The notes beneath the pieces are model-generated. The model did no database searches, was not told where the DNA came from, and saw only the letters and a list, made by a program, of their open reading frames with translations. The position numbers and the translations under genes are program-made. From Candidatus Latescibacterota bacterium (GTDB lineage Bacteria; Latescibacterota; UBA2968; GCA-2709665), in contig OZ252100.1 in assembly GCA_965248435.1 (NCBI GenBank), forward strand, positions 5,592,477 through 5,656,476: a stretch of 64,000 nt of DNA, read 5' to 3'. Position 1 is the first letter of the stretch; each line of letters starts with the position of its first letter. Shown here piece after piece: positions 3,792-27,861 of the stretch.

Positions 3792-3805
3792 GAAAGCTTT
3801 ATAAA
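3792..3805 (+). promoter_or_regulatory. Archaeal-type BRE/TATA promoter
   Basis: GAAAGC-TTTATAAA, 22 nt before ATG 3828. Confidence 0.6.
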
Positions 3806-3827
3806 TACTCAGATGTCTCCTTGGAGG

Positions 3828-5093
3828 ATGAAAAAGCCAAGTTTAGGCAGAAGAATAAAGAGGACCTTGAAGGAGACAGGTTACGGATTATTACTTAGTG
3901 GTCTATTAAGTATGCCTCCTCAAGCCAGTCCACATCCTAGTCCTTCAACAAGAAAAGCTTCTAAGGGTGTTGTAGATGGAGATTTTTACATTATATCTGA
4001 AGGAGAGCCAAATCCCGATTTCGATGGAAATGGAAAAGTAGACTTCCTTGATTTTGTAGGATTTGCACAAGCTTTTGACTCTAGACCCACAGACCTTGAT
4101 TGGGATGTTAGATATGATTTGAATGAGGATAGTGAAGTTGGATTCTTTGACTTTCTAGAATTTACAAAGGCTTTCGGCAAAGACATTGAGATAAGAGAAA
4201 ACGCTCCGCAGATAGCTGAGATTCCTCTACAAGAAATACCTCAAGTTGAATCTGTCGTAAATCCTGTAACTCTAGACCTCTCACAATATGTCTCAAATCA
4301 AGATAGTAATTTAGTCTATGAAATAGTTGGCAGTAATGGTTTGGTTACGCAGCTAAAAGACTCAGTTCTAACATACAGACCTAGAGGACTCTTTAATAAA
4401 GAAGATAATGGTTTGGCTAAGGTTGCGTTTAGAGTTAGGAAAGGAGATCTAGAAAGCAATCTGGGAGAACTAGATGTTGAGATTGAGAGAAATGGTGATT
4501 TTATTTATGAATACAACACTCTCTTCCCGGACATACAAGAAGGTCTCAAATCTCCGATTAAAGTGGCTTACCTATGGGCTGGCCCTATAAGAACAGATCC
4601 TAGTGAATGGAATCCAAGTAAATGGGATGGTCCTTTGACTTCTGAAGAAGACCTTGCAAATGCAGAGAAAGGAATAAAACGACTCCATATCCTAACAAGC
4701 GGGTTTATTTCTAAAGACATTGAAGTTATTAGAGGCACAGATCATACTAGGATTTATGATGAATTTACAGATGATATTATATCTCCGCCTGAAGAGATGC
4801 ACTGGTATGTGAATGAGAGTTTCCCAGGCAAAGGGGCGGCCTATAACAATAGGAGAGATGATAGAAATTACACCTCAGCAGGCTACTATACAAAGCCAGG
4901 AGTAGAGCTCTCAACCCATCTACACGAGTGTTATCATATAGCAACCTCTGGAGCACATTCAGAAAACGATGAAGACTTGCTTTCAGCAGGAGCTACTCCA
5001 GGGATAACCGAATATTCACCAATGCATATTGCGTTGGTAACTGCAAACATAGATGAAAGACTCAAAGCAGGTCTAGCTAGGGCTGAACCTTAG
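3828..5093 (+). CDS. Surface protein with dockerin/EF-hand-like pair, Ig-like segment and C-terminal zinc-metalloprotease motif
   Basis: DFDGNGKVDFLDF...YDLNEDSEVGFFDF; HECYHIATSGAH (HExxH plus third His); start refined from 3783 to ATG 3828. Confidence 0.7.
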   Translation: MKKPSLGRRIKRTLKETGYGLLLSGLLSMPPQASPHPSPSTRKASKGVVDGDFYIISEGEPNPDFDGNGKVDFLDFVGFAQAFDSRPTDLDWDVRYDLNEDSEVGFFDFLEFTKAFGKDIEIRENAPQIAEIPLQEIPQVESVVNPVTLDLSQYVSNQDSNLVYEIVGSNGLVTQLKDSVLTYRPRGLFNKEDNGLAKVAFRVRKGDLESNLGELDVEIERNGDFIYEYNTLFPDIQEGLKSPIKVAYLWAGPIRTDPSEWNPSKWDGPLTSEEDLANAEKGIKRLHILTSGFISKDIEVIRGTDHTRIYDEFTDDIISPPEEMHWYVNESFPGKGAAYNNRRDDRNYTSAGYYTKPGVELSTHLHECYHIATSGAHSENDEDLLSAGATPGITEYSPMHIALVTANIDERLKAGLARAEP

Positions 5094-6938
5094 TTAGGTT
5101 CCGTATGTCTCTGGCTTAACTAAAATAACTTGATCGGTTTTGCCAAGAGCATTTGTCTTTAAACAAATCTGCTGAGCAGCCCAACAATCAAGAGTTTTGC
5201 CTCCAACTCTAAAGGGATTTCTCTTAATTTTGTTAATGTCATATTCTCTTCCTGCATAAAAGAATTTTCCACCCTGCTTTTGCTCAATAGGACAATCGCA
5301 TTTAGTTATTTTTTCTTTACCTTCAACACATCTTCTTCCATTCCAAACTTGCTGTCCAACAAGACAACAAGCTGCTGTTCTATCTGTAGCATAACTGCAA
5401 TACAAATTCTCATTTCTCTGCCCTGGCAAAGCACTAGAAGAGAAGTAAGAACATTCATTATTAGTAGTGCAGGTTTTCTCTCTTAAAGAACCTTGACAAG
5501 TAGCGACTAAAAATCCTCTTTTCTTTTGAGCACCACAAGGATTTCCGCAATTAGCTTCATTGAAAACAATACTCAACTTAGGTGGATCTCTACCTGCACT
5601 AGTTACTACTGGCTTTCCTACTGGACCAAATTCAAAACCCTTACTGCAACTGCTCGATGCTTTATTCTCACAATAGTAGATAGCCTTGTATTGCCCTATA
5701 ACCTCACCTCCACAATTAACAGTAGCCCTTTCTCCTCCAGCTACTTCATCAACATTCATTTGACTATCATCAGGCACTTTGACAAAACCAAATGCTTCAA
5801 GCTGTTGGGCAGTAGGAGTAACTAACTTCCATCCAAATTCAATTGAAGCACCTCCACCTTGCTCAAAATACTCTACTTGAATTGTATGTTTTCCAGCTTG
5901 CAGACTAGTGTCAGCACTATTTGTAGAAATTCTTCTAAGACCGTGCAAGCCCCAATTGTCCACAATTTTTTTCCTAGACCCATCAGGATAGATAAGATAG
6001 AGCCTTGAGCCATCATCACTATTAGTCCAGAATTCAAACTGGCCCGAGGTAAAATCAAATCTGCCAGCATACTTTACAGAAAATTGATCAGCCCCAACAT
6101 TAGTAGCTTGAGGAGGAGCACCTATGCCCCAACCTTTTGAAAACTTTCTCTCATCTCCTTGTCCTGAACTTGCTAAATCAGATGTTCTAACACTAAGCCT
6201 GAAATTATCGAAGTTTACACCATCATAATAATTGGCGGTAAACAAATTGTCTCTCACTTGGGGAAAGCCAGGATCAGCAGCTAGCTTAGGAGCACTAGGA
6301 GTTACAGCTTGTGGAGTTGGTGCTGGAGCTCTTGTAGGAAGTGCGCATCTCGGCGGAGCTATTGTTCTTACTTCCTCGGTTTTTCTATTCTGAGTTATTC
6401 GCACATTACATCTCTGAGACTTAGCCCTAGTGTCACAAAAGAAATCAGAATACCTCTCCCATTTTTGTTCTTGGCATTGGCCTATGTTTCTCCAATTAGG
6501 TTTCCATCCATCACCAGCATTGCAATTCCTCCCCCAGCAATTAGTATCTGTTTGTCCCTGGGTAACAGTCTTTACTAATCCTGTAAATCCTTGTTGTTGG
6601 AAAGCAACCTCGGCTTGTTTCTGCGTCACTTCAACTCTAGGAGCTGGCTTGCATCCATTACTACCACATCCAAAATTGCACCTACGAACAGTAGTCTTTT
6701 TTCTATTACCCCGGCAGGAGTAGTCTATAAAGGAATTCCTTCCGCAGTAATCTTTCTTGTAATAACTCTTACTCCCAACTCTGTATTTAACATTCCCGCT
6801 TTTGTATTCCTTACAATATGGAGACAGAGAAGAGGAGAAGGCAGAGGAAAGAGAAGCAGTAAGGTGTCTTGACTCACTCTCTGGGATAATAGCAAAGACA
6901 AAAACTACCAACACCAAAAGGAAAATTATCTTTCTCAT
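5094..6938 (-). CDS. Secreted Cys-rich protein with PA14 domain
   Basis: Signal peptide; FSVKYAG...SDDGSRL...DNWGLH...VEYFEQGGGA PA14 motifs; ATGA overlap with the upstream gene. Confidence 0.8.
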   Translation of the reverse strand: MRKIIFLLVLVVFVFAIIPESESRHLTASLSSAFSSSLSPYCKEYKSGNVKYRVGSKSYYKKDYCGRNSFIDYSCRGNRKKTTVRRCNFGCGSNGCKPAPRVEVTQKQAEVAFQQQGFTGLVKTVTQGQTDTNCWGRNCNAGDGWKPNWRNIGQCQEQKWERYSDFFCDTRAKSQRCNVRITQNRKTEEVRTIAPPRCALPTRAPAPTPQAVTPSAPKLAADPGFPQVRDNLFTANYYDGVNFDNFRLSVRTSDLASSGQGDERKFSKGWGIGAPPQATNVGADQFSVKYAGRFDFTSGQFEFWTNSDDGSRLYLIYPDGSRKKIVDNWGLHGLRRISTNSADTSLQAGKHTIQVEYFEQGGGASIEFGWKLVTPTAQQLEAFGFVKVPDDSQMNVDEVAGGERATVNCGGEVIGQYKAIYYCENKASSSCSKGFEFGPVGKPVVTSAGRDPPKLSIVFNEANCGNPCGAQKKRGFLVATCQGSLREKTCTTNNECSYFSSSALPGQRNENLYCSYATDRTAACCLVGQQVWNGRRCVEGKEKITKCDCPIEQKQGGKFFYAGREYDINKIKRNPFRVGGKTLDCWAAQQICLKTNALGKTDQVILVKPETYGT

Positions 6939-7381
6939 TCTAGCTCCTGGCAAACCTTTCTTAACTCGGCATCAGCAATTTGATTACAAAAACCTAAATC
7001 ATCAGTCTCAATAGCTTGGTTAAAATAATAATCATCAAGGCAATCCTGTCTCAGCTCTTGCTCTAATTCGTCACACAAGCTTGCATCAGCCAAAGCATTC
7101 TCCACTACAGATTCTTCAAATCCTATGACAAATGCGGCTTCACAACTCTCTCTAACTCTAGGATCTGTAATTAGATTGCAAATACTACTATCATCGTTAT
7201 CTAGAGCCTGCTGCAAGTAGAAGTCGTCCAAACACTCACCCCTCTTATGCAAGTTAGGAATATTCTCACATTCACCAATATCAGTAATGAGTTTTTCAAT
7301 CTTTTCCTGTTCACACCCAGCACCTATGAGAAATACAAGACTTAGAATTACAAATATCACCTTCTCTTTGTTATGAAACAT
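6935..7381 (-). CDS. Lipoprotein-like protein with Cys-paired helical repeats
   Basis: GAGC after a hydrophobic stretch; repeated C-x2-I-x5-R-x2-C units. Confidence 0.7.
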   Translation of the reverse strand: MFHNKEKVIFVILSLVFLIGAGCEQEKIEKLITDIGECENIPNLHKRGECLDDFYLQQALDNDDSSICNLITDPRVRESCEAAFVIGFEESVVENALADASLCDELEQELRQDCLDDYYFNQAIETDDLGFCNQIADAELRKVCQELE

Positions 7382-7406
7382 CTATGCTAAAGAAGGGGGA
7401 AACGTA

Positions 7407-7421
7407 TATATAAAGGTTATC
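7407..7421 (-). promoter_or_regulatory. Archaeal-type BRE/TATA promoter (leaderless)
   Basis: GATAACC-TTTATATA, 25 nt before ATG 7381, no SD. Confidence 0.65.
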
Positions 7422-7450
7422 CCTTTAGGAGTAGCAGGAGATGTTGTGAG

Positions 7451-8038: not shown

Positions 8039-8182
8039 GAGAAAGAAGAAGCCTGAAAAGAAGAGGGGTTAAAATCGCTACACTAATAGCTGAAATAAAT
8101 TTCTGAAGGTGCAACTCCATTCAAGACACCCTGCCCTAGTAACGGGAATATTATCATAAAGTTCACATCCTATTAAGAATGA

Positions 8183-8488
8183 ATGCCAGATGAACAATAC
8201 AAAGAGCCAGCAAGATGCAAATACCACAGTGATTGTGGATTTTACAACCAAGGAGTTCTGCCATCAGAGATAGAGAAGAGGATGTGTGGCAGAGGACAAA
8301 GGGTAGATGAGAATTACAAGCCCTGGATTCCTGAAGTTGAAAACTTTACTCCTTGTGAAGGCTATGCCTTTGGACCTGAAGTTGTGTGTGATGCTTTTCT
8401 GTATTTCGAAAACTCAAAACTGATTCGGACAATGAGTGGAGGGCTTAAGGCAATTCTGCAAAGAGTAGAGGAGCAGGGATATGAGTAG
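8183..8488 (+). CDS. Hypothetical Cys-containing protein
   Basis: 101-aa ORF with five Cys. Confidence 0.55.
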   Translation: MPDEQYKEPARCKYHSDCGFYNQGVLPSEIEKRMCGRGQRVDENYKPWIPEVENFTPCEGYAFGPEVVCDAFLYFENSKLIRTMSGGLKAILQRVEEQGYE

Positions 8489-9319: not shown

Positions 9320-10018
9320 GATAATTTGTCCCAGCTCCCTTAAGGACGATAAGAATAGTGCAGTGGCAAGAGACCCTTGGGTTAGGCCGCTGACTAAATA
9401 GAGTTAGCGCCTTTCCTCTGTGCACATTTTTGAATAAAGTGCACATTCTTGAACAATCTACATTTTACAGATAGAGAGAAGTTATAGTTTTTTCTTTTAC
9501 TTATAGGAGATTGGACAGTATATTAATAGCTGGAAAAATTGAGATTATAGCTTGGCGGCTACACTTTCATCTGGGTGGAAGTGTGGCCGTTTCTTATTCT
9601 ACTCCCTTTAAAGCAGCCTGGCTTAGTAGGTCCCCAGCGAGGCTGCAACCGGGCCGGGGGCGTTTCTATTTAAAGGATGGCGGCGCCCCTGGTCTTTTAT
9701 TTGTATCAAACACTAGCTTCAATAGAGATGCCAGCAGGAGTTATTGGCCCAGGAGCTGAGATGGCCTCAATCTTAGTCATTGATGACGACAAACCCTCGC
9801 GGGACGCTCTCAGAGCAATTCTAGAATTGGCAGACCACGATATTATAGAAGCCCCAGATGGGGAAGCCGGGCTTTTGCATTACAACCAAACACCTACCGA
9901 TTTAGTGTTTGTAGATATGCTGATGCCTGAGAAAGAGGGTATGGAGGTTATTCGAGAACTAAAGAAGGACTTTCCTTCAGTGAAGATCATTGCGGTTTCC
10001 GGGAGTGGAATTCAGTAT

Positions 10019-11073
10019 GCTGGATTCAATGACTAAGTGCAACACTTGGACTTGAAGACTTCAGCTGGTGTTTTGAAGTTAAGACATTTTCTTGGTCGGT
10101 TGTTGATCCGGTTCTGAATTTTCTTTAACTCGTGTTTGCTGACCTTTGAGAAGTCTGTCTTCTTGAGGAGGTATCTGCGGACCAGACCGATAGCGTTTTC
10201 CACAGCGCCTCGCTCCCAGCTGTGAAACGGTTTGCAGAAATAGGATTTGGTGCCAAGGGCCTCGTTGACCCGTTGATGTTGGCCGTTTTCGGATCCGTTG
10301 TCATATGTGATGCTCTTCCTCATGTGGGGAGGATGTCGCCCAAGGCGTCGATTAATCGCTTCGGCGACCTCCGAGGGTCCGTTCTTTGCCAGCTTAGCCA
10401 GGTGTAGGTATCTCGACGATCGCTCAAGACAAGCGCCAACGGCCTGTTTGCTCTCTCGAGAGATGATGGTGTCGGATTCCCAGTGGCCAGGTTGTTTCCG
10501 TTTTTCGATGTAACGGGGACGTCGATCGATCGAAATACGGCCTGGAATGTGGCTTTCCCGGTGTTTTCGGGTATGCCACCGCGGCTTTCGTTTTTTGTGA
10601 GCTCGGGATAAGCAAGCAACCAGATCCCGCTGCTTGCGCACCTTTGGATCGTAGATATACTGATAGATGGCTTCGTGGCTGATACCCGCGCTCGGACGCT
10701 CCTCGGGAAGCCTCCCAGCGATCAACTCGGGAGACCATCCTTGCTTGAGTTTGGTCTCGACATATCGCCGGATAACCGGATTCTTCAGCCGTTTCCGCTT
10801 GCCGGCCTCCCGCTTACGTTTCTCAGCCCTTCTGTGAGCCTGGAGGCCCGAGTAACTCTCAGCTATCGGGGACGGATTACGTTTCAACTCTCTTGGAATC
10901 GTGCTGGCGCTCCGGTCAAGGGCCTTGGCAATATCTCTAAGGCTTGCACCAGCGGCTCGACAAAGCGCAATCAGCTCGCGTTCGTCTATCGTAAGATGCT
11001 TGTAATTGTTTCCCATACACTTAGGATAGGACAGTTGCTACCCTAAGTGTTGCACTTCCTTATTGAACTCGGG
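10019..11073 (-). mobile_element. IS30-family insertion sequence (~1,055 bp)
   Basis: Imperfect IRs GCTGGATTCAATGACTAAGTGCAACACTT / CCCGAGTTCAATAAGGAAGTGCAACACTT; TAT (or GTAT) target duplication. Confidence 0.92.
10033..11016 (-). CDS. IS30-family transposase
   Basis: N-terminal HTH; GHWESDT, TYDNGSE, WERGAVEN DDE motifs. Confidence 0.95.
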   Translation of the reverse strand: MGNNYKHLTIDERELIALCRAAGASLRDIAKALDRSASTIPRELKRNPSPIAESYSGLQAHRRAEKRKREAGKRKRLKNPVIRRYVETKLKQGWSPELIAGRLPEERPSAGISHEAIYQYIYDPKVRKQRDLVACLSRAHKKRKPRWHTRKHRESHIPGRISIDRRPRYIEKRKQPGHWESDTIISRESKQAVGACLERSSRYLHLAKLAKNGPSEVAEAINRRLGRHPPHMRKSITYDNGSENGQHQRVNEALGTKSYFCKPFHSWERGAVENAIGLVRRYLLKKTDFSKVSKHELKKIQNRINNRPRKCLNFKTPAEVFKSKCCT

Positions 11074-11206
11074 TATTTGAATATGGCACTAGATTTAGGA
11101 GCAGAGGCTGCTATCATAAAGCCTTTTGGCAAGCAAACAGTATTGAACACTGTCAGGGAGCTGGTAGAGAAAGCATAGTTTGGTCGGGGAGAAATGGTAA
11201 TTTAGA

Positions 11207-13557: not shown

Positions 13558-14196
13558 TTATAGGTAGCTGTGGACATAACCTTCTAGATTCCCTTGAGCT
13601 GGGATTGGTCCTGGTGTAAGATCTAGAATTTTGTTGCTAATCGTTTCATAAATTGATTTCCAAAAAGATTTTTTAGCTAAGAGGTTTGGATCAGCATCCT
13701 TTAAGTAGATCGATGTTGCAAAACCAAATAGTCCCATTCCTATAGATAGATTAGTCAGGACCTCACTGGTATTCCAAGGTTCGTAGTTGAGTAAGTAACC
13801 TACTGTGTCAAATGCGGTCTTCCCTAGAACAGTTAATGCTCCCAAAAAAGTTGGTAATCTAACTACTTGATTTACTCGTTTGTATGCTAGCTCAAGAGGA
13901 TTATCGGCAATTGTCAAGTCAGATACTTCTCTTTCTATTCTTTCCCTTAGGCCAAGTCCGACCATATTTAAACTGAGATCACTTATATACATCGGCATTA
14001 TGTAATGCGTGTCCAATCCAGAAGTATCAGGAACCAATCCAGGTGTTAAGAGGAAGAGAGATGCGAAACCGATTGGAAAAGTGAGCTTATAGATGCTTCT
14101 TTCCGCTTGTTCCCATCTCTGTGTAATCTTCGAATACTGTCTGAGTATTTGTTCATCTAATCCCTTCGTGAATCCTAGCAATGACTCTAGTGACAT
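13558..14196 (-). CDS. Hypothetical membrane protein, DPANN-like in style
   Basis: 212-aa ORF with TM segments; CAATAAA-TTATATAA box (14221-14228) 24 nt upstream, no SD. Confidence 0.7.
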   Translation of the reverse strand: MSLESLLGFTKGLDEQILRQYSKITQRWEQAERSIYKLTFPIGFASLFLLTPGLVPDTSGLDTHYIMPMYISDLSLNMVGLGLRERIEREVSDLTIADNPLELAYKRVNQVVRLPTFLGALTVLGKTAFDTVGYLLNYEPWNTSEVLTNLSIGMGLFGFATSIYLKDADPNLLAKKSFWKSIYETISNKILDLTPGPIPAQGNLEGYVHSYL

Positions 14197-16104
14197 CTGA
14201 GGACTACAGCACGCGCTTGTTTATATAATTTATTGCTCTTTCGAAATTCTAGAGAAGATTCCACATATTGTATGTTCGCTATCTCCCTTCCTTAAGAACG
14301 TAATTCTCCTCAAAAAATTCTTAATCCTGAAAGCATAAAAGGCACTATTCGAAAAGGAACTAACCATTTAAGCTTTCGGATTGTGGCGGTTTCCCTCCTC
14401 GCTTAATCCATCCCATATATAGGCTGATAGCTCAACCACCAGGAGCCAGAAGCCACTCCTTCCGTCGTTTTCCCTTCTGCCTCACTTGTCTTGGTAATTA
14501 AGAACGGGGCTCATTGAGAAGTGGGCTACTAAAGTTTGAGTGATGTGAATGGAAACAAAAGTGGATGGGTTTCAGTTGAACCCCAAGTTTGGAAATAGTC
14601 AAAGTCCAGGAAAAGAGCAAGGTTGCGAAATAATACCTTCCGCATATGTTTTTCATACTGCCATAGCACAGTGAAATAGTATTAAGACTTCATTCAACTC
14701 CTAATCATTGAGATGAAATCCTATGACTCTATCCCAGATGCAAGAACTCTGAGCAATTCAATATCTCAAATCCAATCTTTGGAAGGAACAATTAGGGCAA
14801 CTCAATTTGAGAAACTTTCAGATCTAAAGGGTATAGTGAAGCAGCTTGGCAGGGATTTTCAGGAAAGAACCTTCCTCCACCAGAGAAACAAACAGAAACT
14901 CTCAACCACTCTTCTAAGAATTGATAATGAAATTCTACAAGGCCAAAGAGGAAGAGAAACAGACTTGACTAGAGTTGAGCTAGAAGGTCTGAGAGATGAG
15001 GAAAGAACTCTTCAGGACCTTAACACTTTGAAAGGACAGATTCGGCACTATGGCTTGGAGTATAGAGATTTGCAGAGGAGCCTCAGACTGCTCCCAGGTG
15101 CCTATATAAATAGGCAGCTCATCCTGGATCTTAGGCCAATACTGCCTCGGCCTATGGGCGATTTAATTCTGCTGTCGTATGACGCTAAGACCCAGCACAC
15201 TATTCTACTGGAACCACCATCTAAAGATGAATGTAAGGGTGAGTTTCAGCTTGGAAGTGTGGTGTATGACTCTAAGGAGTTGAGAGAATTTTCTATTTCT
15301 AGGGAAGACCTAAATCGCCATCTGGTTGTTGTCGGAAAAAGTGGAGAGGGAAAGACTTCATTTGTAAGACTCTTACTTCAGGGACTTTTGGGCAAAGTGC
15401 CCTTCCTCATATTCTCCTTCAAGAAAGAATACTCTTACCTTACACAACGTCCCAATGTCAAAGTGATAAGATGGGACCAGCTCACATTCAATGCTCTAAG
15501 ACCGCCTGGAAATCTAAAAGAGTGGGTTGCTAATTTCTCCGACTCTTTCTGTCAAGAGACTTCACTGTTAATCGGATCTAAATCATTTCTCATAGACCAG
15601 CTCGGCTATCTTCTCAAACACAAAGACGGGGCCTTCCCCAATCTCAGAGACGTAATCACCTTACTCAGCACCCTTAGTTTTTCGGCCCGGCAACGCGAAG
15701 CTCAATATCTAAGTGTTGTTCAAAACCGTCTGAGAAGTCTGGCCTTTTCCATCCCCCATATCATTTCCTGTAGAGATGGAGTTAACCTGAAGTCTTTATT
15801 GGAGGGGAATGTTGTCATAGAGCTGGATTCATTGAATCTCGATTCGCAAAACTTCATAATTTCAACACTCCTCACCTGGACTTTCCTCTACCGCATTTCC
15901 AAAAATGAAAAAGGAAAATTGAGGCACGTCATCATTTTTGATGAAGCCAAGAGAATCTTCGATCGAAACAAAGAGAAGAGAGTAACAGAAGGTTTGCCTC
16001 AGATTGACATTCTCACATCTCAAATTAGAGAATATGGTGTGGGGTTGGTTGTGCTGGATCAGGAAGCTTCAAAGTGATGTGGCCTTGAAAAAGTGGACGG
16101 TGAA

Positions 16105-16950
16105 CTAAGCCGCTTTTTGGTGTTCGAAGGCGGCTGGAGATACGTAATCCAAAGACGCGTGCAGCCGCTGGTTGTTGTAGAAGACCTCGATGTATTCGAA
16201 GAGTTCTGGCTCGGCGTGCTCGAGGTCGTCCAGGTCGATGTGGTAAGCCCACTCGGTCTTGAGGGACCGGAAAAGGGACTCGGACACTGCGTTGTCCCAG
16301 CAGTTCCCCTTTCGGCTCATGCTCTGGACGAACCCATATTCGGCGATCTTTTCCCGGAACCCCTCGCAGCAGTATTGGATGCCGCGGTCGGAGTGGATCA
16401 TCAGCCCCTTTGGCGGACGCCGGGCACGGATAGCACGCGAGAGCGCCTTGAGGACCATCTCGTGCCGCAGGCTGGTGCTCACGCACCACCCGACGATGCG
16501 CCGCGAGAACAGGTCGATGAAGACCGCCAGATACAACCAGCCAGCCTTGCTCGGCAGATACGTAATGTCGCTGGCCCACACCCTGTTCGGCGCGTCGATG
16601 TCAAAATTGCGATCCAGCAGGTTCGGCGCCGCAGCCAGATGGTGATTCGAGTCCGTTGTGGCCCTGAACTTCCGTGCGACCTTCGACCGCAGGCCCTGCC
16701 GGCGCATCGATTGGGCAACTCGCGTGCGGCTGCACGGATGGCCCTGGCCGGTCAAATACCGGGCGATCTTCGTGCTGCCGTAGCGAGCTTTGTGCGCCTC
16801 GAACGCCGCTCTGACTCGGGCGTCCAGAAGCCGCCGGGCCCTCTTTCTGGCGCTCTCGGGCCGCAGCAGCCAGGCATAGAAACCGCTCTTGGATACCTCC
16901 AGGACCTTCGCCATCCTCTCCACCGAAAATTCCCAGCGGTGGTCCCTCAT
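16105..16950 (-). CDS. IS3 transposase OrfB (DDE)
   Basis: WASDITY, HSDRGIQY, GNCWDNAVSES. Confidence 0.95.
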   Translation of the reverse strand: MRDHRWEFSVERMAKVLEVSKSGFYAWLLRPESARKRARRLLDARVRAAFEAHKARYGSTKIARYLTGQGHPCSRTRVAQSMRRQGLRSKVARKFRATTDSNHHLAAAPNLLDRNFDIDAPNRVWASDITYLPSKAGWLYLAVFIDLFSRRIVGWCVSTSLRHEMVLKALSRAIRARRPPKGLMIHSDRGIQYCCEGFREKIAEYGFVQSMSRKGNCWDNAVSESLFRSLKTEWAYHIDLDDLEHAEPELFEYIEVFYNNQRLHASLDYVSPAAFEHQKAA

Positions 16951-17261
16951 GAACCGGAACCGGCTTTCGGTGTCTTTGAAAAGATGGCGACTGCTTTTTT
17001 TAGGATGTCCCGTTCCTCACGAGCGATCTCCAGCTCGCGACGCAGACGGCGGTTCTCCTCCTCCAGGGGCTTCTGGTGCCCCGTACCCGGGAAGGACTCT
17101 TCAGGGTCGGCTTCAAGTTCCTTGCGCCACGTGCGGATCGCTCCCTGGTACAGCCCCAGGTCTCGCTCTACCTGCCGATCCGTCACGTCGCCGGCATCCG
17201 CGATCCGGACTGCTTCACGCTTGAAATCGGAATCAAATGTCCGTTTCGGTTTCCCTTTCAT
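16947..17261 (-). CDS. IS3 transposase OrfA (HTH), with an A7G -1 frameshift signal near 16994-17001
   Basis: FKREAV...ERDILKKAVAIF; CTA AAA AAA GCA; ATGA overlap with orfB. Confidence 0.9.
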   Translation of the reverse strand: MKGKPKRTFDSDFKREAVRIADAGDVTDRQVERDLGLYQGAIRTWRKELEADPEESFPGTGHQKPLEEENRRLRRELEIAREERDILKKAVAIFSKTPKAGSGS

Positions 17262-17530
17262 AGACACACCTCCTGACGGAAGATACTTTGGTTCTCGGTG
17301 TGTCCACAATTTCAAAACGCCTCAAAGCTCACCCATTCTATTCTAGCTAATACGCACATTAAAATTGCTCTCCAGCTAGGGAATGGAATTGATATTGATA
17401 CGTTTGCTAAAGCAATGAGCTTACGCCGAAAAGATTTTCTAACAATGCTCAATGTGGGAGAGGGAGTAGTGAAAATCGGAAAACTAAATCCCTTCTTGCT
17501 CAAGATTCCATACGTTCCAATCCCCAAGGC

Positions 17531-17590
17531 CGATTTACCCCGATTTACCAGTTTTACCCAGGAAGGAAAGCAGATTTACCCGATTTACTC
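17531..17590 (+). repeat. Five GATTTACC-like short repeats inside the ATPase linker
   Basis: CGATTTACCC CGATTTACCA GTTTTACCC ... AGATTTACC CGATTTACT. Confidence 0.7.
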
Positions 17591-18217
17591 TTCTGATAAA
17601 CTATCTATACTGGCCCTTGGTTTTCTAACTGACATCTCTCTCTACCCTGAAAGCAGAATCACAGAGAGGTATAAACGCTTAGGGATGAATCCAAAAACAG
17701 GAAATAATCTGAAGAAGGCATTACTAGAGCGGAGTCTGATTAAAGAGCGAAGGGTGTATAATGGACGGAACGTAGTTCTCCTGGACCTAACTCCAAGCGG
17801 GGCTTTGAGTCTGGAGCAAAATCCCAGAAAAGGATGGAGGAAGGGGAATTCAGAGCATCAATACTGGAGATACAGAGCAGCTAATCACTATAGAGAGCTG
17901 GGATATGAAGTAGAAGAGGAAGTTGCTGTTGGTGAGGGTAGGAGCGTGGATGTGATTGCTAAGAAAGGAAAGGAGAGTCTTGGGATTCAGATTGAAACTG
18001 GATCTTCAGACATTGGGAGAAATGTGGAGACCTGTTTAGATGCTGGGTGTTCCAAGGTGTTCTTGATTCCAACCAATCAGGAAGCAAAGAAAACAGTGGT
18101 AGAGGTAGTGAAGGAGTGGTATCCTGCGCCTGTGTCTCTGATGACGACTCGTTTTCTCAAAACTCTACGTGATATTGTCTGACTCAACTATCCATCTACA
18201 TCCGGGGATGACCTAGG

Positions 18218-18878: not shown

Positions 18879-20192
18879 CTAAATCGTTTCAGCACTCGTG
18901 TTTCTTTGCGATTTGATATCCCTCATCTGGCTTTGAAGTTGCGTCACCATTTCTTTCAGTTTAAACAATTCCCCGACAGAATTCTGCTCTAAGAACTCCT
19001 TAACCTTTTCAAGCCCCTCATCATCACTTCTCATCTTCTCTCTAATTTTATCCGAATCTACCAAGCGAAGACACTTAGGACAAGTATCCTCTGAAAATCC
19101 TATCTGAGCAAAACTACAAAATGGACACTGCTTCGTCTTGGGAGTAGAGTGTTGACCCTTTGTATCGGTAAGCAGTCCTTTTCTGGTAAGGTCTCTTTGG
19201 AAGGCATCTTCCTGTGTGTTCATATCATAGCTGTTTAAGGGACGCATAGAAGTCCACCTGCTCTTGTATTTGACATCCTGCGGAGGAACCCCGTTCGCTA
19301 AATCAGTGGTGATGCCATTTCTCTTGAATGAGTAGCAGGTGATATGTTTACCAATACCAAGTTCCGCACAAGCTTTTTTGAGCAAATCATTAACAGTATC
19401 TGGATGTAATTGTTTTTTCTTTTCATCAAGAAACAGATAAGCATCGGGATCTGATTTGAAGGGATGCTGGCTATACCACTTCATCACATAGGGAAAACTT
19501 AGAGTCAAGGGCAGAAACCCAATCCCTTCCTTACCGTGTTCAGAGATCATAATTTTTCCATAGCCATCGAAAATCTTGAGGCTCCGGATTCTTGCAAAAG
19601 CAGTCTCTTGGGGTCTGCCATATCCATCGAACATAGTAATTAGGAACGCCTGCACAGAAGGGTGAGAGCTGAAGTAGTTTATCAACTTCATAAACTCATC
19701 CCAGGTAAGTTTGTCCTTCCGCTCTTCTTCCTGGCTCTTATCAATCTTGGCTTTAAGGTGTCTTACGGGATAGGGTGTTGTTGTCAGGTCCAATCTTCCC
19801 TGTGGGTCGACCTCTGGGAGTAGCTGCCTCCATAAGAACTGAATATCTGCAATGAAATCCGTTTTTGTCTTCGGCTTATTGAGACGAGTATATGCAAAGG
19901 CTACAATTTCATCTAAATCGTCTGGTCCACATTCTGCCAGATCCTTTGTAGTTGCGTGGCATATAATTCTGAGAGTGTAGAACAATTTGCACCTTCGAAT
20001 ATAGCTGGTATCTCTTGAATCAAGCTTTACAGCCATCTTCCTGAAGTATTCTAGGTTCTTAGAGTTCTTGCAGTAGTAGATCCCTCTCAGTCTTCCACTT
20101 CGTCTCTCATCAGGTTGGAGAGCAAATTGGTCTAGGGTAGCCAGCAGTCTTTCGTAAGTTCCTTTGTATCCATAAATGTCATCCTTTACCAT
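18879..20192 (-). CDS. Tyrosine recombinase/integrase with C-terminal Zn ribbon and coiled coil (archaeal-type architecture)
   Basis: GRPQE, GKEG, YSFKR, RWT, SYD catalytic-like residues; CPFC...CPKC; TTTTAAAA box 23 nt upstream, no SD. Confidence 0.85.
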   Translation of the reverse strand: MVKDDIYGYKGTYERLLATLDQFALQPDERRSGRLRGIYYCKNSKNLEYFRKMAVKLDSRDTSYIRRCKLFYTLRIICHATTKDLAECGPDDLDEIVAFAYTRLNKPKTKTDFIADIQFLWRQLLPEVDPQGRLDLTTTPYPVRHLKAKIDKSQEEERKDKLTWDEFMKLINYFSSHPSVQAFLITMFDGYGRPQETAFARIRSLKIFDGYGKIMISEHGKEGIGFLPLTLSFPYVMKWYSQHPFKSDPDAYLFLDEKKKQLHPDTVNDLLKKACAELGIGKHITCYSFKRNGITTDLANGVPPQDVKYKSRWTSMRPLNSYDMNTQEDAFQRDLTRKGLLTDTKGQHSTPKTKQCPFCSFAQIGFSEDTCPKCLRLVDSDKIREKMRSDDEGLEKVKEFLEQNSVGELFKLKEMVTQLQSQMRDIKSQRNTSAETI

Positions 20193-20535: not shown

Positions 20536-20667
20536 TTAGCTATCCTCATTCTTCCGAAGTATTTCTTGAATTTCCTGTTTGGCATTCTCTGTCAAATCAC
20601 CAATAGTTTTCATCAGCCTATCATACACTCCGCTAATTTCGTTCGCCTTTCTTCTAGTCCCCTGCAT
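20536..20667 (-). CDS. Small helical protein, 43 aa (not in the ORF track)
   Basis: MQGTRRKANEISGVYDRLMKTIGDLTENAKQEIQEILRKNEDS; GGAGG SD; coupled to both neighbours. Confidence 0.55.
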   Translation of the reverse strand: MQGTRRKANEISGVYDRLMKTIGDLTENAKQEIQEILRKNEDS

Positions 20668-20788
20668 TCTCTAGGCCTCCATAAAGATATCTCTCTTTTC
20701 TGGATTCAATCAAGTAATCCACTTTTTGATTCACATCTTTTACAAGCTCATACGTCTCCCTAATCTTTCTTTCAAGATCCATCTTCAT
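20654..20788 (-). CDS. Small coiled-coil protein, 44 aa
   Basis: MKMDLERKIRETYELVKDVNQKVDYL...; TTTATAAA box (20811-20818) 22 nt upstream. Confidence 0.55.
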   Translation of the reverse strand: MKMDLERKIRETYELVKDVNQKVDYLIESRKERYLYGGLENAGD

Positions 20789-22395: not shown

Positions 22396-22401
22396 AAGGA
22401 A

Positions 22402-23107: not shown

Positions 23108-23230
23108 TGAACTACTGGACTGAGGTCTATGCAGGATGCAGCTTTCGATTGGCTGGAAGGTTCTGAAATGCTCCACCATTCTCACTAATCCCAGAGGGAA
23201 GAAATCAATCTTTTTTAGAGAGTATAGGAT

Positions 23231-25255: not shown

Positions 25256-26118
25256 ACCAAGAATCTCTTAATCTCATTAAGTCAATCTCTGAAAGTTTTA
25301 TTTCAGAGATTTATCCAGAAGAGTTGGGTTTCTTTGAAGCCTATTGGAGCGCATTCGAAATTGTGTTAAGGGAGTATGAAGATACTGGTAGATGGGCTGT
25401 GGAATTCGCTGAAGATGCAGCTTCAAGTTTAGGACTTGGTGCAAGCGCTGAAGGACTTGCAATCGCCAATGTCCCACACGTCTTTGATAGGATCTTTTTT
25501 GAGATTGAGACCTGGGAAGAGAAGATGTCAAAGTCGGATGCTAAGGAGTCTGTAAATCAAGCTGTTGAAAAGTGGTTCGATAAATTTCACCTCCCTAGAA
25601 AAGGAATTGAAGGAGTCAAGGTCTTCATTGCAGAATGGTATCTTGCAGGAGTAATCAAACCCATCACATTTGTGAAAGTCTATCGAGTCTACAGAGGTGA
25701 AGTGGAGGAAGATTTGCAGTGGGATGCAGTAGACGCCCTTCGGAAGAAGTATCAATCTCAAAAGGATGATTTGAAGGTGTGGATTGATGAAGAGAAGAAG
25801 GAGGTGCTCTGCTACCGAAAACCTGTTCTTAGTGGCAGCAGAATCAGACTTCTGTTTCTCTATCTCCTAAAGAATCTTGGCAGTTTTGTCAGTTTCTATG
25901 AGCTGCTGAAGGAGGTTTGGAATAGGCAATTGGAGGATGAAGACGACGTTGAACACGATGGGCTTATTCACACAACCCTCTCTCGACTGCGCACTCGCTT
26001 AGAGAATGAGCTTGATATTGATGAAGAAGTGATCATTGATAGTCAGCGCTCCCTGTCACTTACAAGAACCTTTCTGAATCAACTGGACGGAGATTTCTGC
26101 ATAATCATTCAGCTATAG
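25252..26118 (+). CDS. Transcriptional regulator with C-terminal OmpR-type winged helix and no receiver domain
   Basis: LFLYLLKNLGSFVSFYELLKEVW...IHTTLSRLRTRL; ATGA overlap with the protease gene. Confidence 0.8.
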   Translation: MNQESLNLIKSISESFISEIYPEELGFFEAYWSAFEIVLREYEDTGRWAVEFAEDAASSLGLGASAEGLAIANVPHVFDRIFFEIETWEEKMSKSDAKESVNQAVEKWFDKFHLPRKGIEGVKVFIAEWYLAGVIKPITFVKVYRVYRGEVEEDLQWDAVDALRKKYQSQKDDLKVWIDEEKKEVLCYRKPVLSGSRIRLLFLYLLKNLGSFVSFYELLKEVWNRQLEDEDDVEHDGLIHTTLSRLRTRLENELDIDEEVIIDSQRSLSLTRTFLNQLDGDFCIIIQL

Positions 26119-26287
26119 ACCTCCTCTTAGATACCTATGAACATTGGATCTTGGAGACATCCCGCCAGCGTATTTGATGTTACATATGAGCAAAAAGATT
26201 AAGTCAAGATTAACACGATTTAGGTGATGTTACAACACCCCCAATATAGAAAAGGATTTAAATAGACAGATATATTAGAAGATTTAT

Positions 26288-26773
26288 ATGGTGAAACAGG
26301 ATTCAACGATTTTCAAATCAGTGCATTCTGATATTGTGGGCACTATAAAAAGATTAACCAAAAACCAACCCTTCCCAGAATATTTTGTAGCTCAGGATAG
26401 TGAAGAGAATGAAGGAATTATAAGAGAGGGTATGAAGGCTGCGGGATTTATTGAAGAAATAACAGAAGTATTACGTCTACAAATAATTAATAAGAGGAGA
26501 GACCCTAACAAATATGGATTCTTACTATTATTCTTTGAAATTCAAAAACTAAAGACAGATGCTAAAGGTAGAGTAAATCTAAAAATCGCTACAATTTTGA
26601 CATATGTCCCACTTGGAAAAGAGAAGAAGAAGACGTTCGACTGTAGAAAGACCTTTAAATATAAATTCGAAGAAGAAAGATATGATGAATTGGAGAAGTT
26701 TTATAAAGAGTTTGTTGCTTGGATTTCGAAACAACTAGAGTCTAAAAAGGTAAACAATTCCTTTGATTTTTGA
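26288..26773 (+). CDS. Hypothetical protein (very AT-rich) with an archaeal-type promoter
   Basis: GAAAAGGA-TTTAAATA at 26257-26264, 23 nt before ATG, no SD. Confidence 0.65.
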   Translation: MVKQDSTIFKSVHSDIVGTIKRLTKNQPFPEYFVAQDSEENEGIIREGMKAAGFIEEITEVLRLQIINKRRDPNKYGFLLLFFEIQKLKTDAKGRVNLKIATILTYVPLGKEKKKTFDCRKTFKYKFEEERYDELEKFYKEFVAWISKQLESKKVNNSFDF

Positions 26774-26996
26774 GACCCTATAATCACTTTCTCCGATTAA
26801 ACTGCCATTCCTAAGCAGTATCCTCTGATTACACTTCCGGTAGTTCTGTAGTAACTCCCATAACTCTTAGCATCAAAACAAGCCCTTACACAGAACTTAC
26901 AATGTAAGGGTCTTGTGTGTTCTCTTTTGGATTTCGATTGGCTAAACTTAGGGTGTCACGAAGAATTGAACTGCTCATCTTCACAAGGAGAGAGAA

Positions 26997-27296
26997 ATGG
27001 AAAAGGCTAGGGAGGATAACTTCAGCCAGGACCTCAATACTGTGCTGGATGACATAACAAAAGAAAGTTGGAATGAGCTTCAGATTAACGCTGTAGAAAT
27101 CCTGGAGGATAAGAGCCACGCAATCATCCTTGGTGGAGATGATGAGAATTACGATGCCTGTGTCAAAGGGAAAGAACGAGAAATAATCCTGATGATTGCT
27201 AACGAAGTAGAAACTGATTCACCTCTTGGGAAAATCATCAAGTTTGTTGTAGGAGTGCATTTGAAGAGAAGATTCTCTGAAGAGTTGAACTCGTAG
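26997..27296 (+). CDS. Hypothetical protein
   Basis: AAGGAG SD, 99 aa. Confidence 0.6.
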   Translation: MEKAREDNFSQDLNTVLDDITKESWNELQINAVEILEDKSHAIILGGDDENYDACVKGKEREIILMIANEVETDSPLGKIIKFVVGVHLKRRFSEELNS

Positions 27297-27341
27297 GAAC
27301 CATCAAAAATGGAGAGGTCTCCTGACTAGAACAATAGAAAA

Positions 27342-27548
27342 ATGGTAAATCTAAATCAGAAATCAGGGTCAGTGATCAGAGTCCCAAATCGTGAGAAAAG
27401 TGAGGCAACAGGGAGCAATTCCCTGACGGCAGTGCTTAACCATCAACTCAGATCCATCGAAGACGAGGTCGGGAGACTAACGGCAAAGAGGGAGCAATTT
27501 CTTAGGATGATGCGTGAAATCAGGTTGAGAATCAATTCCCTTCACTAA
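27342..27548 (+). CDS. Small coiled-coil protein
   Basis: 68-aa ORF with a heptad C-terminus. Confidence 0.45.
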   Translation: MVNLNQKSGSVIRVPNREKSEATGSNSLTAVLNHQLRSIEDEVGRLTAKREQFLRMMREIRLRINSLH

Positions 27549-27588
27549 CCCTAACCAAATCCAAAGCTATATAAAGGAGCAAGGTGCT

Positions 27589-27861
27589 GTGGAATCCGTG
27601 ATTGAAATGGCAGAAGAAAGAGAAGTTCCACCAAACACATCTTATGCAATCCGGTTCCACAAAGAAGATAGAGGTAGGGGCATCTCCAGACTGATTGGCT
27701 ATGGATCAGGGAGTTTTGGAGGAACAGAGAATGGAATTCTATTGGTTCCCTACAAAGACTTAAAGTGCCTAGATGATGCAGGCATCAGATATGAAAGCTG
27801 TGAATTAGGAATGATGACGACCGAGGAAATTGAAGAAAGACTAGAGCCTAATTGGGAATAA
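27589..27861 (+). CDS. Hypothetical protein (first of a two-gene pair)
   Basis: 90-aa ORF; CAAAGC-TATATAAA box at 27568-27575; start may be 27598 or 27607. Confidence 0.55.
   Translation: MESVIEMAEEREVPPNTSYAIRFHKEDRGRGISRLIGYGSGSFGGTENGILLVPYKDLKCLDDAGIRYESCELGMMTTEEIEERLEPNWE

What the first reader, a model, noticed from the sequence alone, without database searches (positions are those of the whole stretch)
3792..27600. Archaeal-type TATA/BRE leaderless promoters on about 8 genes inside an island of a bacterial chromosome: candidate inter-domain mobile element
Seen: an AT-rich octamer sits a near-constant 22-25 nt before the start codon at eight sites. These are GAAAGC-TTTATAAA 3798 (22 nt to ATG 3828), GATAACC-TTTATATA 7414 minus (25), CAATAAA-TTATATAA 14228 minus (24), GAAATAG-TATTAAGA 14680 (25), TTTTAAAA 20223 minus (23), TTTATAAA 20818 minus (22), GAAAAGGA-TTTAAATA 26257 (23) and CAAAGC-TATATAAA 27568 (22 to GTG). 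Most have no properly spaced SD, while neighbouring bacterial-type genes have SDs and -35/-10 boxes. Established: a BRE plus TATA box centred ~26-28 nt upstream of a leaderless start is the TBP/TFB promoter architecture of Archaea. Inference: these cassettes came from an archaeon (the proteins resemble Woesearchaeota/Pacearchaeota-style ORFs) and are interleaved with diderm-bacterial genes in one element.
Basis: partly seen in the sequence, partly recalled or inferred. Interest (0 to 1): 0.9.

Follow-up and report, generated by a model that had tools for sequence, protein, structure and literature searches.

The report
Archaeal-type integrase module in bacterial island
A low-GC island in a bacterial chromosome carries an integrase whose relatives are almost all from tiny DPANN archaea, and several island genes sit behind boxes that look like archaeal promoters, which points to DNA that crossed between the two domains of life.

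Summary
All eight AT-rich octamers are at the stated places. The stated spacing holds for seven; site 8 is 22 nt only from the second in-frame GTG.

The host is a diderm bacterium: bacterial 16S, Omp85, Shine-Dalgarno (SD) use, no TBP or TFB. The island (~43% GC in a 56.6% GC genome) ends at a large serine recombinase beside tRNA-Glu. It holds two host IS copies and has a diverged sister island.

The site-5 gene is an archaeal-type tyrosine integrase:
- 7 of 8 organism-named relatives (36-49% identity) are archaeal, mostly DPANN.
- All 3 hits among 50,697 phage and virus records are archaeal viruses.
- In 41 non-redundant loci of more distant relatives, 30 have a TATA-like box 19-28 nt before the start and 4 an SD.

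A 16-mer model built only from other bacterial islands ranks sites 1 and 8 first and second in the island, and site 7 fifth.

Verdict: partly supported. This is an archaeal-affiliated integrase/HerA module with BRE/TATA-like boxes inside a bacterial island, not eight proven archaeal cassettes. Whether the boxes work is unknown.

The parts
3791..3806 (+). Site 1: AGAAAGCTTTATAAAT. A BRE/TATA-like 16-mer, 21 nt before ATG 3828.
   Evidence: Best hit (16.7 bits) of the externally derived matrix in the 37-kb island. Octamer confirmed. Kept in the sister copy, where the upstream region is 96% identical.
3828..5093 (+). Gene 1: secreted protein with a signal-like N-terminus, a dockerin/EF-hand-like D-x-N-G-D repeat region and a C-terminal HExxH motif.
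   Evidence: Translation. No Pfam or NCBIfam hit. Residues about 55-130 matched in 41 of 41 genomes of the host's order; a 76%-identical paralogue lies in the sister island. No plasmid hit.
6935..7381 (-). Gene 2 (148 aa, orphan). Site 2 box TTTATATA at 7407-7414, 25 nt upstream.
   Evidence: Found only in G000 (two copies, 96% identical) among 168 genomes of the phylum.
13558..14196 (-). Gene 3 (212 aa, orphan). Site 3 box TTATATAA at 14221-14228, 24 nt upstream.
   Evidence: The only hit among 5.8 billion clustered proteins is itself.
14680..14687 (+). Site 4: TATTAAGA (7 of 8 A/T), 25 nt before ATG 14713.
   Evidence: The sister orthologue keeps only TAGTAT, not the octamer.
14713..18182 (+). 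Gene 4: HerA/FtsK-like P-loop ATPase with a C-terminal winged-helix and nuclease-like part. It is split by an IS at about 16068-17325, with TCAAAG on both sides.
   Evidence: DUF87. IS junctions and reading frame. Intact 731-aa sister copy at 56% identity. Best NCBIfam hit is CedD at 8e-7, far below cut-off. PADLOC mad8 at 1e-21. Best plasmid hit is in Halorubrum (140 bits); at least 4 of 17 records are archaeal. The nearest atlas clusters are bacterial.
16068..17325 (.). Host IS copy (5 further copies at over 99% identity elsewhere in the chromosome), inserted in gene 4.
   Evidence: copies; junctions.
10008..11080 (-). IS30-family element (HTH_38 + rve). More than 30 near-identical copies in the chromosome.
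   Evidence: Its two flanks are contiguous in the sister island.
18879..20192 (-). Gene 5: archaeal (DPANN)-type tyrosine integrase with a C-terminal CxxC...CxxC zinc ribbon and family-wide YxxKR in place of HxxR. Site 5 box TTTTAAAA at 20216-20223, 23 nt upstream.
   Evidence: Pfam Phage_integrase. Its only NCBIfam hit is XerA_Arch. Its only plasmid hit is in Haladaptatus. All 3 of 3 virus hits are archaeal viruses. All 10 listed atlas clusters are 82-100% Archaea. 110 relatives, with 7 of 8 organism-named ones archaeal. Alignments A2 and A4.
20654..20788 (-). Gene 6: 44-aa ORF, first of a run of small minus-strand ORFs. Site 6 box TTTATAAA at 20811-20818, 22 nt upstream.
26250..26265 (+). 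Site 7: AAAAGGATTTAAATAG, 22 nt before ATG 26288 of gene 7 (26288-26773, 161 aa, orphan).
   Evidence: Fifth-best matrix hit, 11.0 bits. Gene found in G000 only among 168 genomes of the phylum.
27561..27576 (+). Site 8: CCAAAGCTATATAAAG before gene 8 (27589-27861, 90 aa). Followed by AGGAG.
   Evidence: Second-best matrix hit, 15.1 bits. Start ambiguity.
35380..37023 (+). Large serine recombinase (CcrB/XisF-like) at the right edge of the island. Its 3' end overlaps tRNA-Glu (36930-37005, minus strand).
   Evidence: Pfam Resolvase + Recombinase + Zn_ribbon_recom. NCBIfam. tRNAs. GC rises from about 0.41 to 0.58 across 36-39 kb.

Best explanation
Window 1-37000 is the right-hand part of a roughly 65-kb, low-GC, composite genomic island in the chromosome of a diderm bacterium. 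The island ends at a large serine recombinase gene beside tRNA-Glu. It has been there long enough to receive two of the host's own IS elements and to have a diverged sister island elsewhere in the chromosome.

Inside it lies a module built around a tyrosine integrase of a family otherwise found almost only in DPANN and other archaea. Next to the integrase is a HerA/FtsK-like ATPase that may translocate DNA.

The AT-rich boxes are real. At least sites 1, 7 and 8 belong to a specific motif class (c/aGAAAG[C/G]TTTAWATAG-like). In related archaeal-type integrase elements lodged in other bacteria, that motif is conserved 22-25 nt before an SD-less start codon. In the wider integrase superfamily, including members beside tRNA genes in archaeal genomes, a TATA-like box at that distance is the rule.

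Inference: the boxes are promoter cores of archaeal BRE/TATA ancestry that travelled with mobile DNA from archaea into bacteria. In this host they cannot be read by TBP/TFB, which are absent. They are therefore either used by the bacterial polymerase as -10-like AT-rich elements with short SD-less leaders, or bound by an element-encoded factor, or silent.

Shown: the sequence anatomy, the integrase's affiliation, the motif conservation and the host's identity. Inferred: promoter function, ancestry of the motif and direction of transfer.
For: Host and island:
- Bacterial SSU rRNA at 1586 bits, and 8 Omp85 matches over the cut-off.
- SD peak 5-10 nt before host starts and CCUCC at the 16S 3' end.
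- GC 0.39-0.48 for most of 1-36000, against 0.566 for the genome.
- Host IS copies inside the island, one splitting gene 4 in frame.
- Sister island with 85.7% DNA identity over 6 kb and 40-56% protein identity for the integrase and HerA-like genes.
- One 19.6-kb Logan contig covers 20001-36956 without a difference. Island and flank depths track each other in 4 runs of one sample (34/38, 36/45, 11.4/9.8, 17/13).

Integrase:
- NCBIfam XerA_Arch is the only hit.
- The only hit in 72,556 plasmids is in a haloarchaeon.
- The only 3 hits in 50,697 phage and virus records are archaeal viruses.
- All 10 listed atlas clusters are 82-100% Archaea, the first being Nanobdellota.
- 110 relatives at E <= 1e-10. 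Of the 8 with an organism in the name, 7 are archaeal (Aenigmarchaeota, Woesearchaeota, Nanoarchaeota, Nanoarchaeia, 'archaeon' x3) and 1 is 'bacterium'.

Wider superfamily:
- Host flanks of L073 (TiaS) and L086 (PRK13764/PINA) are archaeal, and many copies follow a tRNA 3' end.
- 30 of 41 non-redundant loci have a TATA-like octamer at 19-28 nt and 4 of 41 an SD-like core. All-A/T hexamers peak at 23-27 nt (10, 14, 20, 14, 9 against about 2).

Clade in bacterial settings (13 rows, SH-aLRT 100), with bacterial context shown for 5 of its loci:
- UvrB, HflX and pyruvate phosphate dikinase on the same contig as the island in G060.
- RadC and a DnaN-like gene beside L099.
- A PEP-CTERM protein in L102.
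- L029 and L031 keep the 18-mer TCGAAAGCTTTAAATAGA and the 25-nt distance while the spacer between them diverges.

Window:
- The matrix built from 9 such external loci ranks sites 1 and 8 first and second, and site 7 fifth.
- 3 of 5 hits of 11 bits or more lie 12-25 nt before a start (P 1.5e-4).
- 6 of the 12 best genome-wide hits lie in the two islands, which make up about 2.3% of the chromosome.
- HerA-like genes lie near integrase relatives in L029, L102 and L113.
Against: - The number of matrix hits is not enriched (P 0.10-0.5).
- Where orthologues are diverged enough to be informative, the box is not kept. The sister integrase has AGGAGG and no box at -25. The sister HerA-like gene keeps only TAGTAT, which fits a bacterial -10 better. 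L035, the only close relative with context, has a GAGGTG SD.
- The window's integrases sit on a long branch apart from the clades that show the conserved box.
- Site 8 has a well-spaced SD.
- Gene 1, behind the best motif match, carries a domain common in the host's own order.
- For the HerA-like protein the nearest atlas clusters are bacterial.
- The island also holds typically bacterial genes: HU, RadC, AraC-type HTH, IS30 and a large serine recombinase.
- No TBP or TFIIB-like gene is in the genome, while the controls found them in all 4 archaea.
- No transcript data exist, so no start site is known. AT-rich islands favour AT-rich motif hits.
Confidence: 0.55

Rival explanations
1. Ordinary low-GC bacterial island. 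The octamers are chance AT-rich runs or plain -10-like bacterial promoter elements with short leaders, with no archaeal ancestry. The integrase is merely a divergent family shared by both domains.
For: - Borderline or absent enrichment in the window.
- 88 all-A/T octamer runs in 37 kb.
- The sister HerA-like gene keeps TAGTAT and the sister integrase uses an SD.
- Many island genes have strong SDs and bacterial-type domains.
- One relative is labelled 'bacterium', and a 13-member integrase clade lives in bacterial settings.
Against: - None of the eight boxes has an xAxxxT hexamer paired with a -35 (and reading).
- Host genes show no all-A/T peak at 22-25 nt, while low-GC genes do.
- The external matrix picks sites 1, 8 and 7 at the right spacing.
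- Integrase relatives are overwhelmingly archaeal in four separate resources.
- There is a sharp TATA-like peak at about 25 nt in 30 of 41 loci.
Confidence: 0.3
2. The boxes are operators for an element-encoded dimeric DNA-binding protein (or integrase arm/core sites), not promoter cores.
For: - Several boxes are perfect palindromes: TTTATAAA, TTATATAA, TTTTAAAA, and AAAGCTTT within sites 1 and the external 16-mer.
- In the bacterial-setting clade the box lies between 9-10-nt inverted repeats, ACAAGTAGTA...TACTACTTGT.
- The island encodes small HTH/RHH-like and winged-helix proteins.
Against: - The same motif stands before genes of unrelated function at a fixed distance from the start codon. 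That fits a core promoter better than a gene-specific operator.
- TATA boxes are themselves nearly symmetric (recalled).
Confidence: 0.1
3. Assembly chimera: archaeal contigs were wrongly joined into a bacterial chromosome at repeats (IS, tRNA).
For: - The runs that hold the stretch are metagenome-like and come from one sample.
- Contigs break at the tRNA genes, and every island segment is bounded by a repeat.
Against: - The IS at 16068-17325 splits one gene whose two halves continue in frame.
- The flanks of the IS30 copy are contiguous in the sister island.
- Depth of island and flank co-vary in 4 runs.
- A second, diverged copy of the island lies elsewhere in the same chromosome.
- G060 shows the same kind of island on one contig with UvrB and HflX.
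Confidence: 0.03

Closest known systems
Archaeal BRE/TATA core promoters of leaderless genes (TBP/TFB-dependent)
   Same: An 8-bp A/T box ends 22-25 nt before the start codon. It is preceded in sites 1, 7 and 8 by a purine-rich GAAAG-type stretch, and there is no usable SD in 5-6 of 8. The same geometry is seen in 30 of 41 loci of related integrases, some in archaeal genomes. The consensus forms (cRnaAnt, TTTAWATA) are recalled, not taken from a call.
   Different: The host is a bacterium without TBP or TFB. No transcript start is known. The box is not kept in the diverged sister orthologues.
Archaeal tyrosine recombinases of the XerA/pNOB8/SNJ2 superfamily (review PMC8371274; section 9 part 1 and found passages read)
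   Same: Phage_integrase catalytic domain, best NCBIfam model XerA_Arch, relatives in DPANN and other archaea and in archaeal viruses, and relatives placed beside tRNA genes.
   Different: The gene sits in a bacterial chromosome, in the middle of an island. No flanking att repeat was found. The family has YxxKR instead of HxxR and a C-terminal zinc ribbon. Which of the review's 17 families it falls in could not be checked, because that is in its Table S1 and supplements are closed.
Bacterial tRNA-linked genomic or defence islands with a large serine recombinase (CcrB/XisF-like)
   Same: Low GC, recombinase at the edge beside a tRNA gene, IS insertions, RadC, an E1-like ThiF protein matching CBASS E1-E2 models, and a HerA-like ATPase matching PADLOC mad8. 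The related island in G060 carries Dsr2.
   Different: It holds an archaeal-type integrase and a BRE/TATA-like motif class that is absent before host genes.
Double-stranded-DNA transfer modules built on FtsK/HerA-like translocases (Streptomyces TraB elements, crenarchaeal Ced system; recalled, apart from the NCBIfam CedD hit)
   Same: An integrase is paired with a HerA/FtsK-like ATPase that carries a winged-helix part. The pair is conserved in both islands of this genome and in L029, L102 and L113.
   Different: The CedD match is only 28 bits against a cut-off of 600. No transfer function was tested. In the window the gene is broken by an IS.

Membership tests
Archaeal BRE/TATA leaderless promoter | A/T-rich 8-bp box centred about 26-28 nt upstream of the transcription start | tested here: inconclusive
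   The geometry relative to the start codon is met at 7 of 8 sites, and at site 8 only for the second GTG. The transcription start itself is unknown.
Archaeal BRE/TATA leaderless promoter | Purine-rich BRE directly upstream of the box | tested here: inconclusive
   GAAAGC, AAAAGGA and CAAAGC stand before sites 1, 7 and 8 and match the externally derived 16-mer. Sites 5 and 6 have no such stretch. The consensus itself is recalled.
Archaeal BRE/TATA leaderless promoter | Recognition by TBP and TFB with an archaeal RNA polymerase | tested here: not met
   There is no TBP (PF00352) or TFIIB (PF00382) match in the six-frame genome. Both families were found in the 4 archaeal controls.
Archaeal BRE/TATA leaderless promoter | Transcript begins at or next to the start codon | not testable with these tools
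   No RNA data could be laid on the stretch.
Archaeal BRE/TATA leaderless promoter | Conservation of box and spacing among orthologues | tested here: inconclusive
   Kept in near-identical sister copies of sites 1 and 2. Not kept in the diverged sister copies of genes 4 and 5. Strongly kept in more distant integrase clades.
Archaeal-type tyrosine integrase (XerA/pNOB8-like superfamily) | Tyrosine-recombinase catalytic domain | tested here: met
   Pfam PF00589 at 7e-7. Invariant R193, K221, W313 and Y322. YxxKR stands in place of HxxR throughout the family.
Archaeal-type tyrosine integrase (XerA/pNOB8-like superfamily) | Closest relatives encoded by archaea or their mobile elements | tested here: met
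   7 of 8 organism-named relatives are archaeal. 3 of 3 virus hits are archaeal viruses. The 1 plasmid hit is archaeal. All 10 listed atlas clusters are mainly Archaea.
Archaeal-type tyrosine integrase (XerA/pNOB8-like superfamily) | Element bounded by att repeats, usually at a tRNA gene | tested here: not met
   No convincing direct repeat flanks the module in 11000-37100. The integrase lies 17 kb from the tRNA.
Sigma-70 (-35/-10) bacterial promoter | TTGACA-like and TATAAT-like hexamers 16-18 nt apart | tested here: not met
   None of sites 1-5 is among the 33 consensus matches in 1-20000. Sites 6-8 were read by eye only. By contrast 8509-8538 matches at 11 of 12, and the host tRNA-Arg has TTGACA-17-TATCTT.
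tRNA-linked bacterial genomic island | Deviant composition, recombinase at the edge, tRNA at the junction | tested here: met

The most novel reading that the evidence does not exclude
A lineage of DPANN-type archaeal integrative elements (integrase plus HerA/FtsK-like DNA translocase) has crossed into bacteria more than once and persists there. It still carries working BRE/TATA-style, leaderless-type promoters. That would mean either that the elements move back and forth between archaeal and bacterial cells living in contact, or that bacterial polymerase (or an unknown element factor) reads an archaeal promoter grammar.
Probability: 0.2. Interest if true: 0.85.

Novelty: new variant of a known kind. 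Interest (0 to 1): 0.66.

Why it matters
Gene transfer between archaea and bacteria is well known at the level of single genes. Mobile elements and their control signals are usually thought to be confined to one domain, because the transcription machineries differ.

Here an integrase family that is otherwise almost wholly archaeal, largely DPANN, sits in islands of at least three bacterial genomes of one small phylum, twice in this genome. A promoter-like motif of archaeal grammar is conserved before SD-less starts in the bacterial copies.

If the boxes are active, it becomes directly testable how an archaeal-style core promoter is read in a bacterium. If they are silent relics, they mark recent archaeon-to-bacterium transfer of whole elements and hint at physical contact between DPANN-like archaea, or their elements, and bacteria.

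Tried and rejected
- Planctomycete host: rejected, no PSD1 match, although that family was found in no control genome either.
- Naming the host through its 17-kb second contig: one 80-bp plasmid match only.
- Genome-contig scan with the HerA alignment: it used only the Walker-A pattern and gave one irrelevant locus, which spent that cap.
- Viral-contig scans with the integrase alone, the integrase family alignment A4 and the HerA pair A3: no relatives.
- PDB sequence search with the integrase: nothing meaningful.
- Plasmid tblastn with gene 1, 33794-34906 and 23231-25255: no match.
- att repeats around the module: none convincing.
- Expression: no RNA holder was listed among the sequencing runs, so nothing can be said about transcription. 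The runs laid were contigs of one sample, possibly the source of the assembly, so they are not independent support.
- Classifying the large metagenome contigs by searching TFIIB and sigma-70 in them: the records are not held.
- Idea that ATG 3813 is a bacterial-type leaderless start 7 nt after TATAAAT: rejected, because the codon is ATA in the sister copy.
- Idea that the window's integrases are decayed because HxxR is missing: rejected, because YxxKR is invariant in 14 of 14 aligned family members.
- Literature: three searches listed no paper on archaeal-type integrases with BRE/TATA-like promoters in bacterial islands. For PMC8371274 I read found passages and section 9 part 1. For PMC6563490 I read found passages only. 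Their supplementary tables, which may bear on family assignment, were not seen.
- Genes 6 and 8 were not searched for relatives. Structure prediction, the representatives search and complex prediction were not used.

Full report
**The sequence.** The window is the last 64 kb of a 5.66-Mb contig with 56.6% GC.
- Positions 1 to about 36,900 have 39-48% GC, apart from a 1.25-kb insert. The rest has 50-58%.
- The low-GC tract continues about 28 kb to the left of the window, with a GC-normal insert.
- The genome has a bacterial SSU rRNA and several Omp85 genes.
- It has a CCUCC anti-SD and a clear SD peak 5-10 nt before host starts.
- It has no TBP or TFIIB-like gene, while both families were found in all four archaeal control genomes.

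**The island.**
- Its right edge is a large serine recombinase (35380-37023) whose end overlaps tRNA-Glu, followed by tRNA-Arg.
- It holds an IS30-family element with more than 30 near-identical copies in the chromosome.
- It holds a second IS with five other copies. That IS splits a HerA-like gene, whose halves continue in frame across a TCAAAG duplication.
- A sister island lies at about 1.174-1.238 Mb of the same contig. It shares 85.7% DNA identity over 6 kb. Elsewhere the proteins are 40-56% identical, including an integrase directly followed by an intact 731-aa HerA-like gene and RadC.
- One independent 19.6-kb contig in each of four runs of one sample covers 20001-36956 without a difference. 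Island and flank depths track each other.
- A chimera is therefore very unlikely.

**The observation.**
The spacing is as stated for seven.
- Site 8 is 13 nt from the first in-frame GTG and has AGGAG 9 nt before it. The stated 22 nt holds for the second GTG.
- Five sites have no SD-like core. Site 1 has GGAGG touching the ATG, and site 6 has a weak AAGGGA.
- None of sites 1-5 is part of a sigma-70-like -35/-10 pair, and such pairs are not enriched (33 against 30.5 in shuffles). Sites 6-8 were read by eye only.
- With an automatic start rule, 4 of 55 genes have an all-A/T octamer at 22-25 nt against 1.36 expected. The scan over all offsets is not significant (P 0.78).
- Genome-wide, host genes show no such peak, while low-GC genes show a bump at 23-27 nt.
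- On the window alone the finding would be weak.

**What the TATA-led genes are.**
- Gene 3 has no relative among 5.8 billion clustered proteins.
- Genes 2 and 7 are found in no other of the 168 genomes of the host's small phylum.
- Gene 1 is a secreted HExxH protein. Its dockerin-like region matched in 41 of 41 genomes of the host's order.
- Gene 4 is a rare HerA/FtsK-like ATPase: 6 relatives in the big protein search, and 4 of 167 other genomes of the phylum.
  - Its weak best NCBIfam match is the archaeal CedD, and its best PADLOC match is mad8.
  - Its best plasmid match is in Halorubrum, and at least 4 of 17 matching plasmid records are archaeal.
  - Its nearest atlas clusters, however, are bacterial.

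**Gene 5, the tyrosine integrase, changes the picture.**
- Its only NCBIfam match is archaeal XerA.
- Its only match among 72,556 plasmids is in a haloarchaeon.
- Its only three matches among 50,697 phage and virus records are archaeal viruses.
- All ten listed atlas clusters are 82-100% archaeal, the first being Nanobdellota.
- Of 110 relatives at 36-49% identity, the eight whose source name gives an organism are seven archaea (Aenigmarchaeota, Woesearchaeota, Nanoarchaeota, Nanoarchaeia, 'archaeon' three times) and one 'bacterium'.
- The family has a C-terminal zinc ribbon and an invariant YxxKR where HxxR is usual.

**Related loci.**
- More distant members of the same superfamily (22-30% identity) were fetched from metagenomes: 113 relatives, of which 80 loci were kept.
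- Many lie directly after a tRNA 3' end.
- Flanks of L073 (TiaS) and L086 (PRK13764/PINA) are archaeal. L082 and L051 lean that way.
- In 41 non-redundant loci, 30 have a TATA-like octamer 19-28 nt before the inferred start and only 4 have an SD-like core. All-A/T hexamers peak sharply at 23-27 nt.
- One clade of 13 (SH-aLRT 100) lies in bacterial settings:
  - In G060 the island follows tRNA-Val on a contig with UvrB, HflX and pyruvate phosphate dikinase, and carries Dsr2.
  - L099 and L089 have RadC and a DnaN-like gene.
  - L102 has a PEP-CTERM protein.
- In this clade the integrase start is preceded at 22-25 nt by c/aGAAAG[C/G]TTTAWATAG.
- L029 and L031 keep an identical 18-mer and the same 25-nt distance while the spacer has diverged.

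**Back to the window.**
- A weight matrix built only from nine of those external loci gives its two best hits in the 37-kb island at sites 1 and 8, and its fifth at site 7.
- Three of the five hits of 11 bits or more end 12-25 nt before a candidate start (P 1.5e-4, or 3e-3 among non-coding positions).
- Six of the twelve best hits in the whole chromosome lie in the two islands, including three near-perfect copies in the sister island.
- Sites 1, 7 and 8 therefore belong to a motif class that is conserved in related elements of other bacteria and that has the form of an archaeal BRE plus TATA box.

**Evidence against.**
- The window's own integrase clade (window, sister, L035) sits on a long branch apart from the clades with the conserved box.
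- Within that clade only the window copy has a box. The sister copy has AGGAGG and L035 has GAGGTG.
- The sister HerA-like gene keeps only TAGTAT.
- The number of matrix hits is not above expectation.
- The island also carries plainly bacterial genes.
- There are no transcript data.

**Reading.**
It is unproven for the others.
- The island as a whole is a bacterial composite island, not an archaeal element.
- The boxes cannot work through TBP/TFB in this cell. Their conservation in bacterial settings suggests some function: a -10-like element for the bacterial polymerase, or a site for an element-encoded protein, as their palindromic nature and flanking inverted repeats allow.
- Three literature searches listed no description of this arrangement. 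The review of archaeal tyrosine recombinases (PMC8371274; parts read) treats these families as archaeal.

Noticed in passing
window 10008-11080 and 16068-17325: Two host IS families lie inside the island. The IS30-like element has more than 30 copies at about 99% identity across the chromosome. The 1.25-kb element has 5 other copies, mostly clustered around 5.31-5.37 Mb.
   Followed up: partly
G000:C1 about 1174000-1238000: Sister low-GC island of about 64 kb with mosaic similarity to the window island. Some blocks are 85-98% identical in DNA. Others are only 40-56% identical in protein, with the integrase and HerA-like genes in a different relative orientation.
   Followed up: partly
G000:C1:1237545 (-) and 1196290 (+): Two near-perfect copies of the 16-mer (CGAAAGCTTTAAATAC and CGAAAGGTTTATATAC) are followed by a shared conserved stretch of about 40 nt with a CATTC/GAATG inverted repeat. 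One reads into a 90-aa ORF and the other into a 2-codon frame. This may be a small RNA or a decayed paralogue.
   Followed up: no
window 29320-31586: ThiF/E1-like protein (466 aa) matching CBASS-type E1-E2 PADLOC models, flanked by small unannotated ORFs. RadC lies at 21895-22395. This may be a ubiquitin-like conjugation defence cluster.
   Followed up: partly
window 8591-9319, 9677-10036, 11207-11566: An HU (Bac_DNA_binding) domain is fused to a response-regulator receiver, with two receiver-like paralogues nearby. A canonical TTGACA-18-TATATT promoter lies at 8509-8538.
   Followed up: no
alignments A2 and A4 (window 18879-20192): The DPANN-type integrase family has invariant YxxKR where tyrosine recombinases usually have HxxR. 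It also has a C-terminal CxxC...CxxC zinc ribbon.
   Followed up: partly
L089, L097, L099, L102, L031: In the integrase clade found in bacterial settings, the BRE/TATA-like box lies between 9-10-nt perfect inverted repeats (ACAAGTAGTA...TACTACTTGT, ACAACTTGT...ACAAGTTGT). The second arm abuts the ATG.
   Followed up: no
L031 (G060:C6 about 36000-48300): A 33% GC island after tRNA-Val in another bacterium of the phylum carries a full-length Dsr2 sirtuin defence gene (956 bits) next to the archaeal-type integrase.
   Followed up: partly
whole genome, host genes: TAnnnT hexamers spike 6 nt before the predicted starts of host genes (53 against about 20). This suggests a set of bacterial-type leaderless genes. 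Repeats were not removed, so IS copies may inflate this spike and another at 23 nt.
   Followed up: no
window 37691-39889 and 44870-63853: A heavy-metal P-type ATPase lies just outside the island. A run of about 14 same-strand genes of 350-500 aa follows on the minus strand and was not examined.
   Followed up: no
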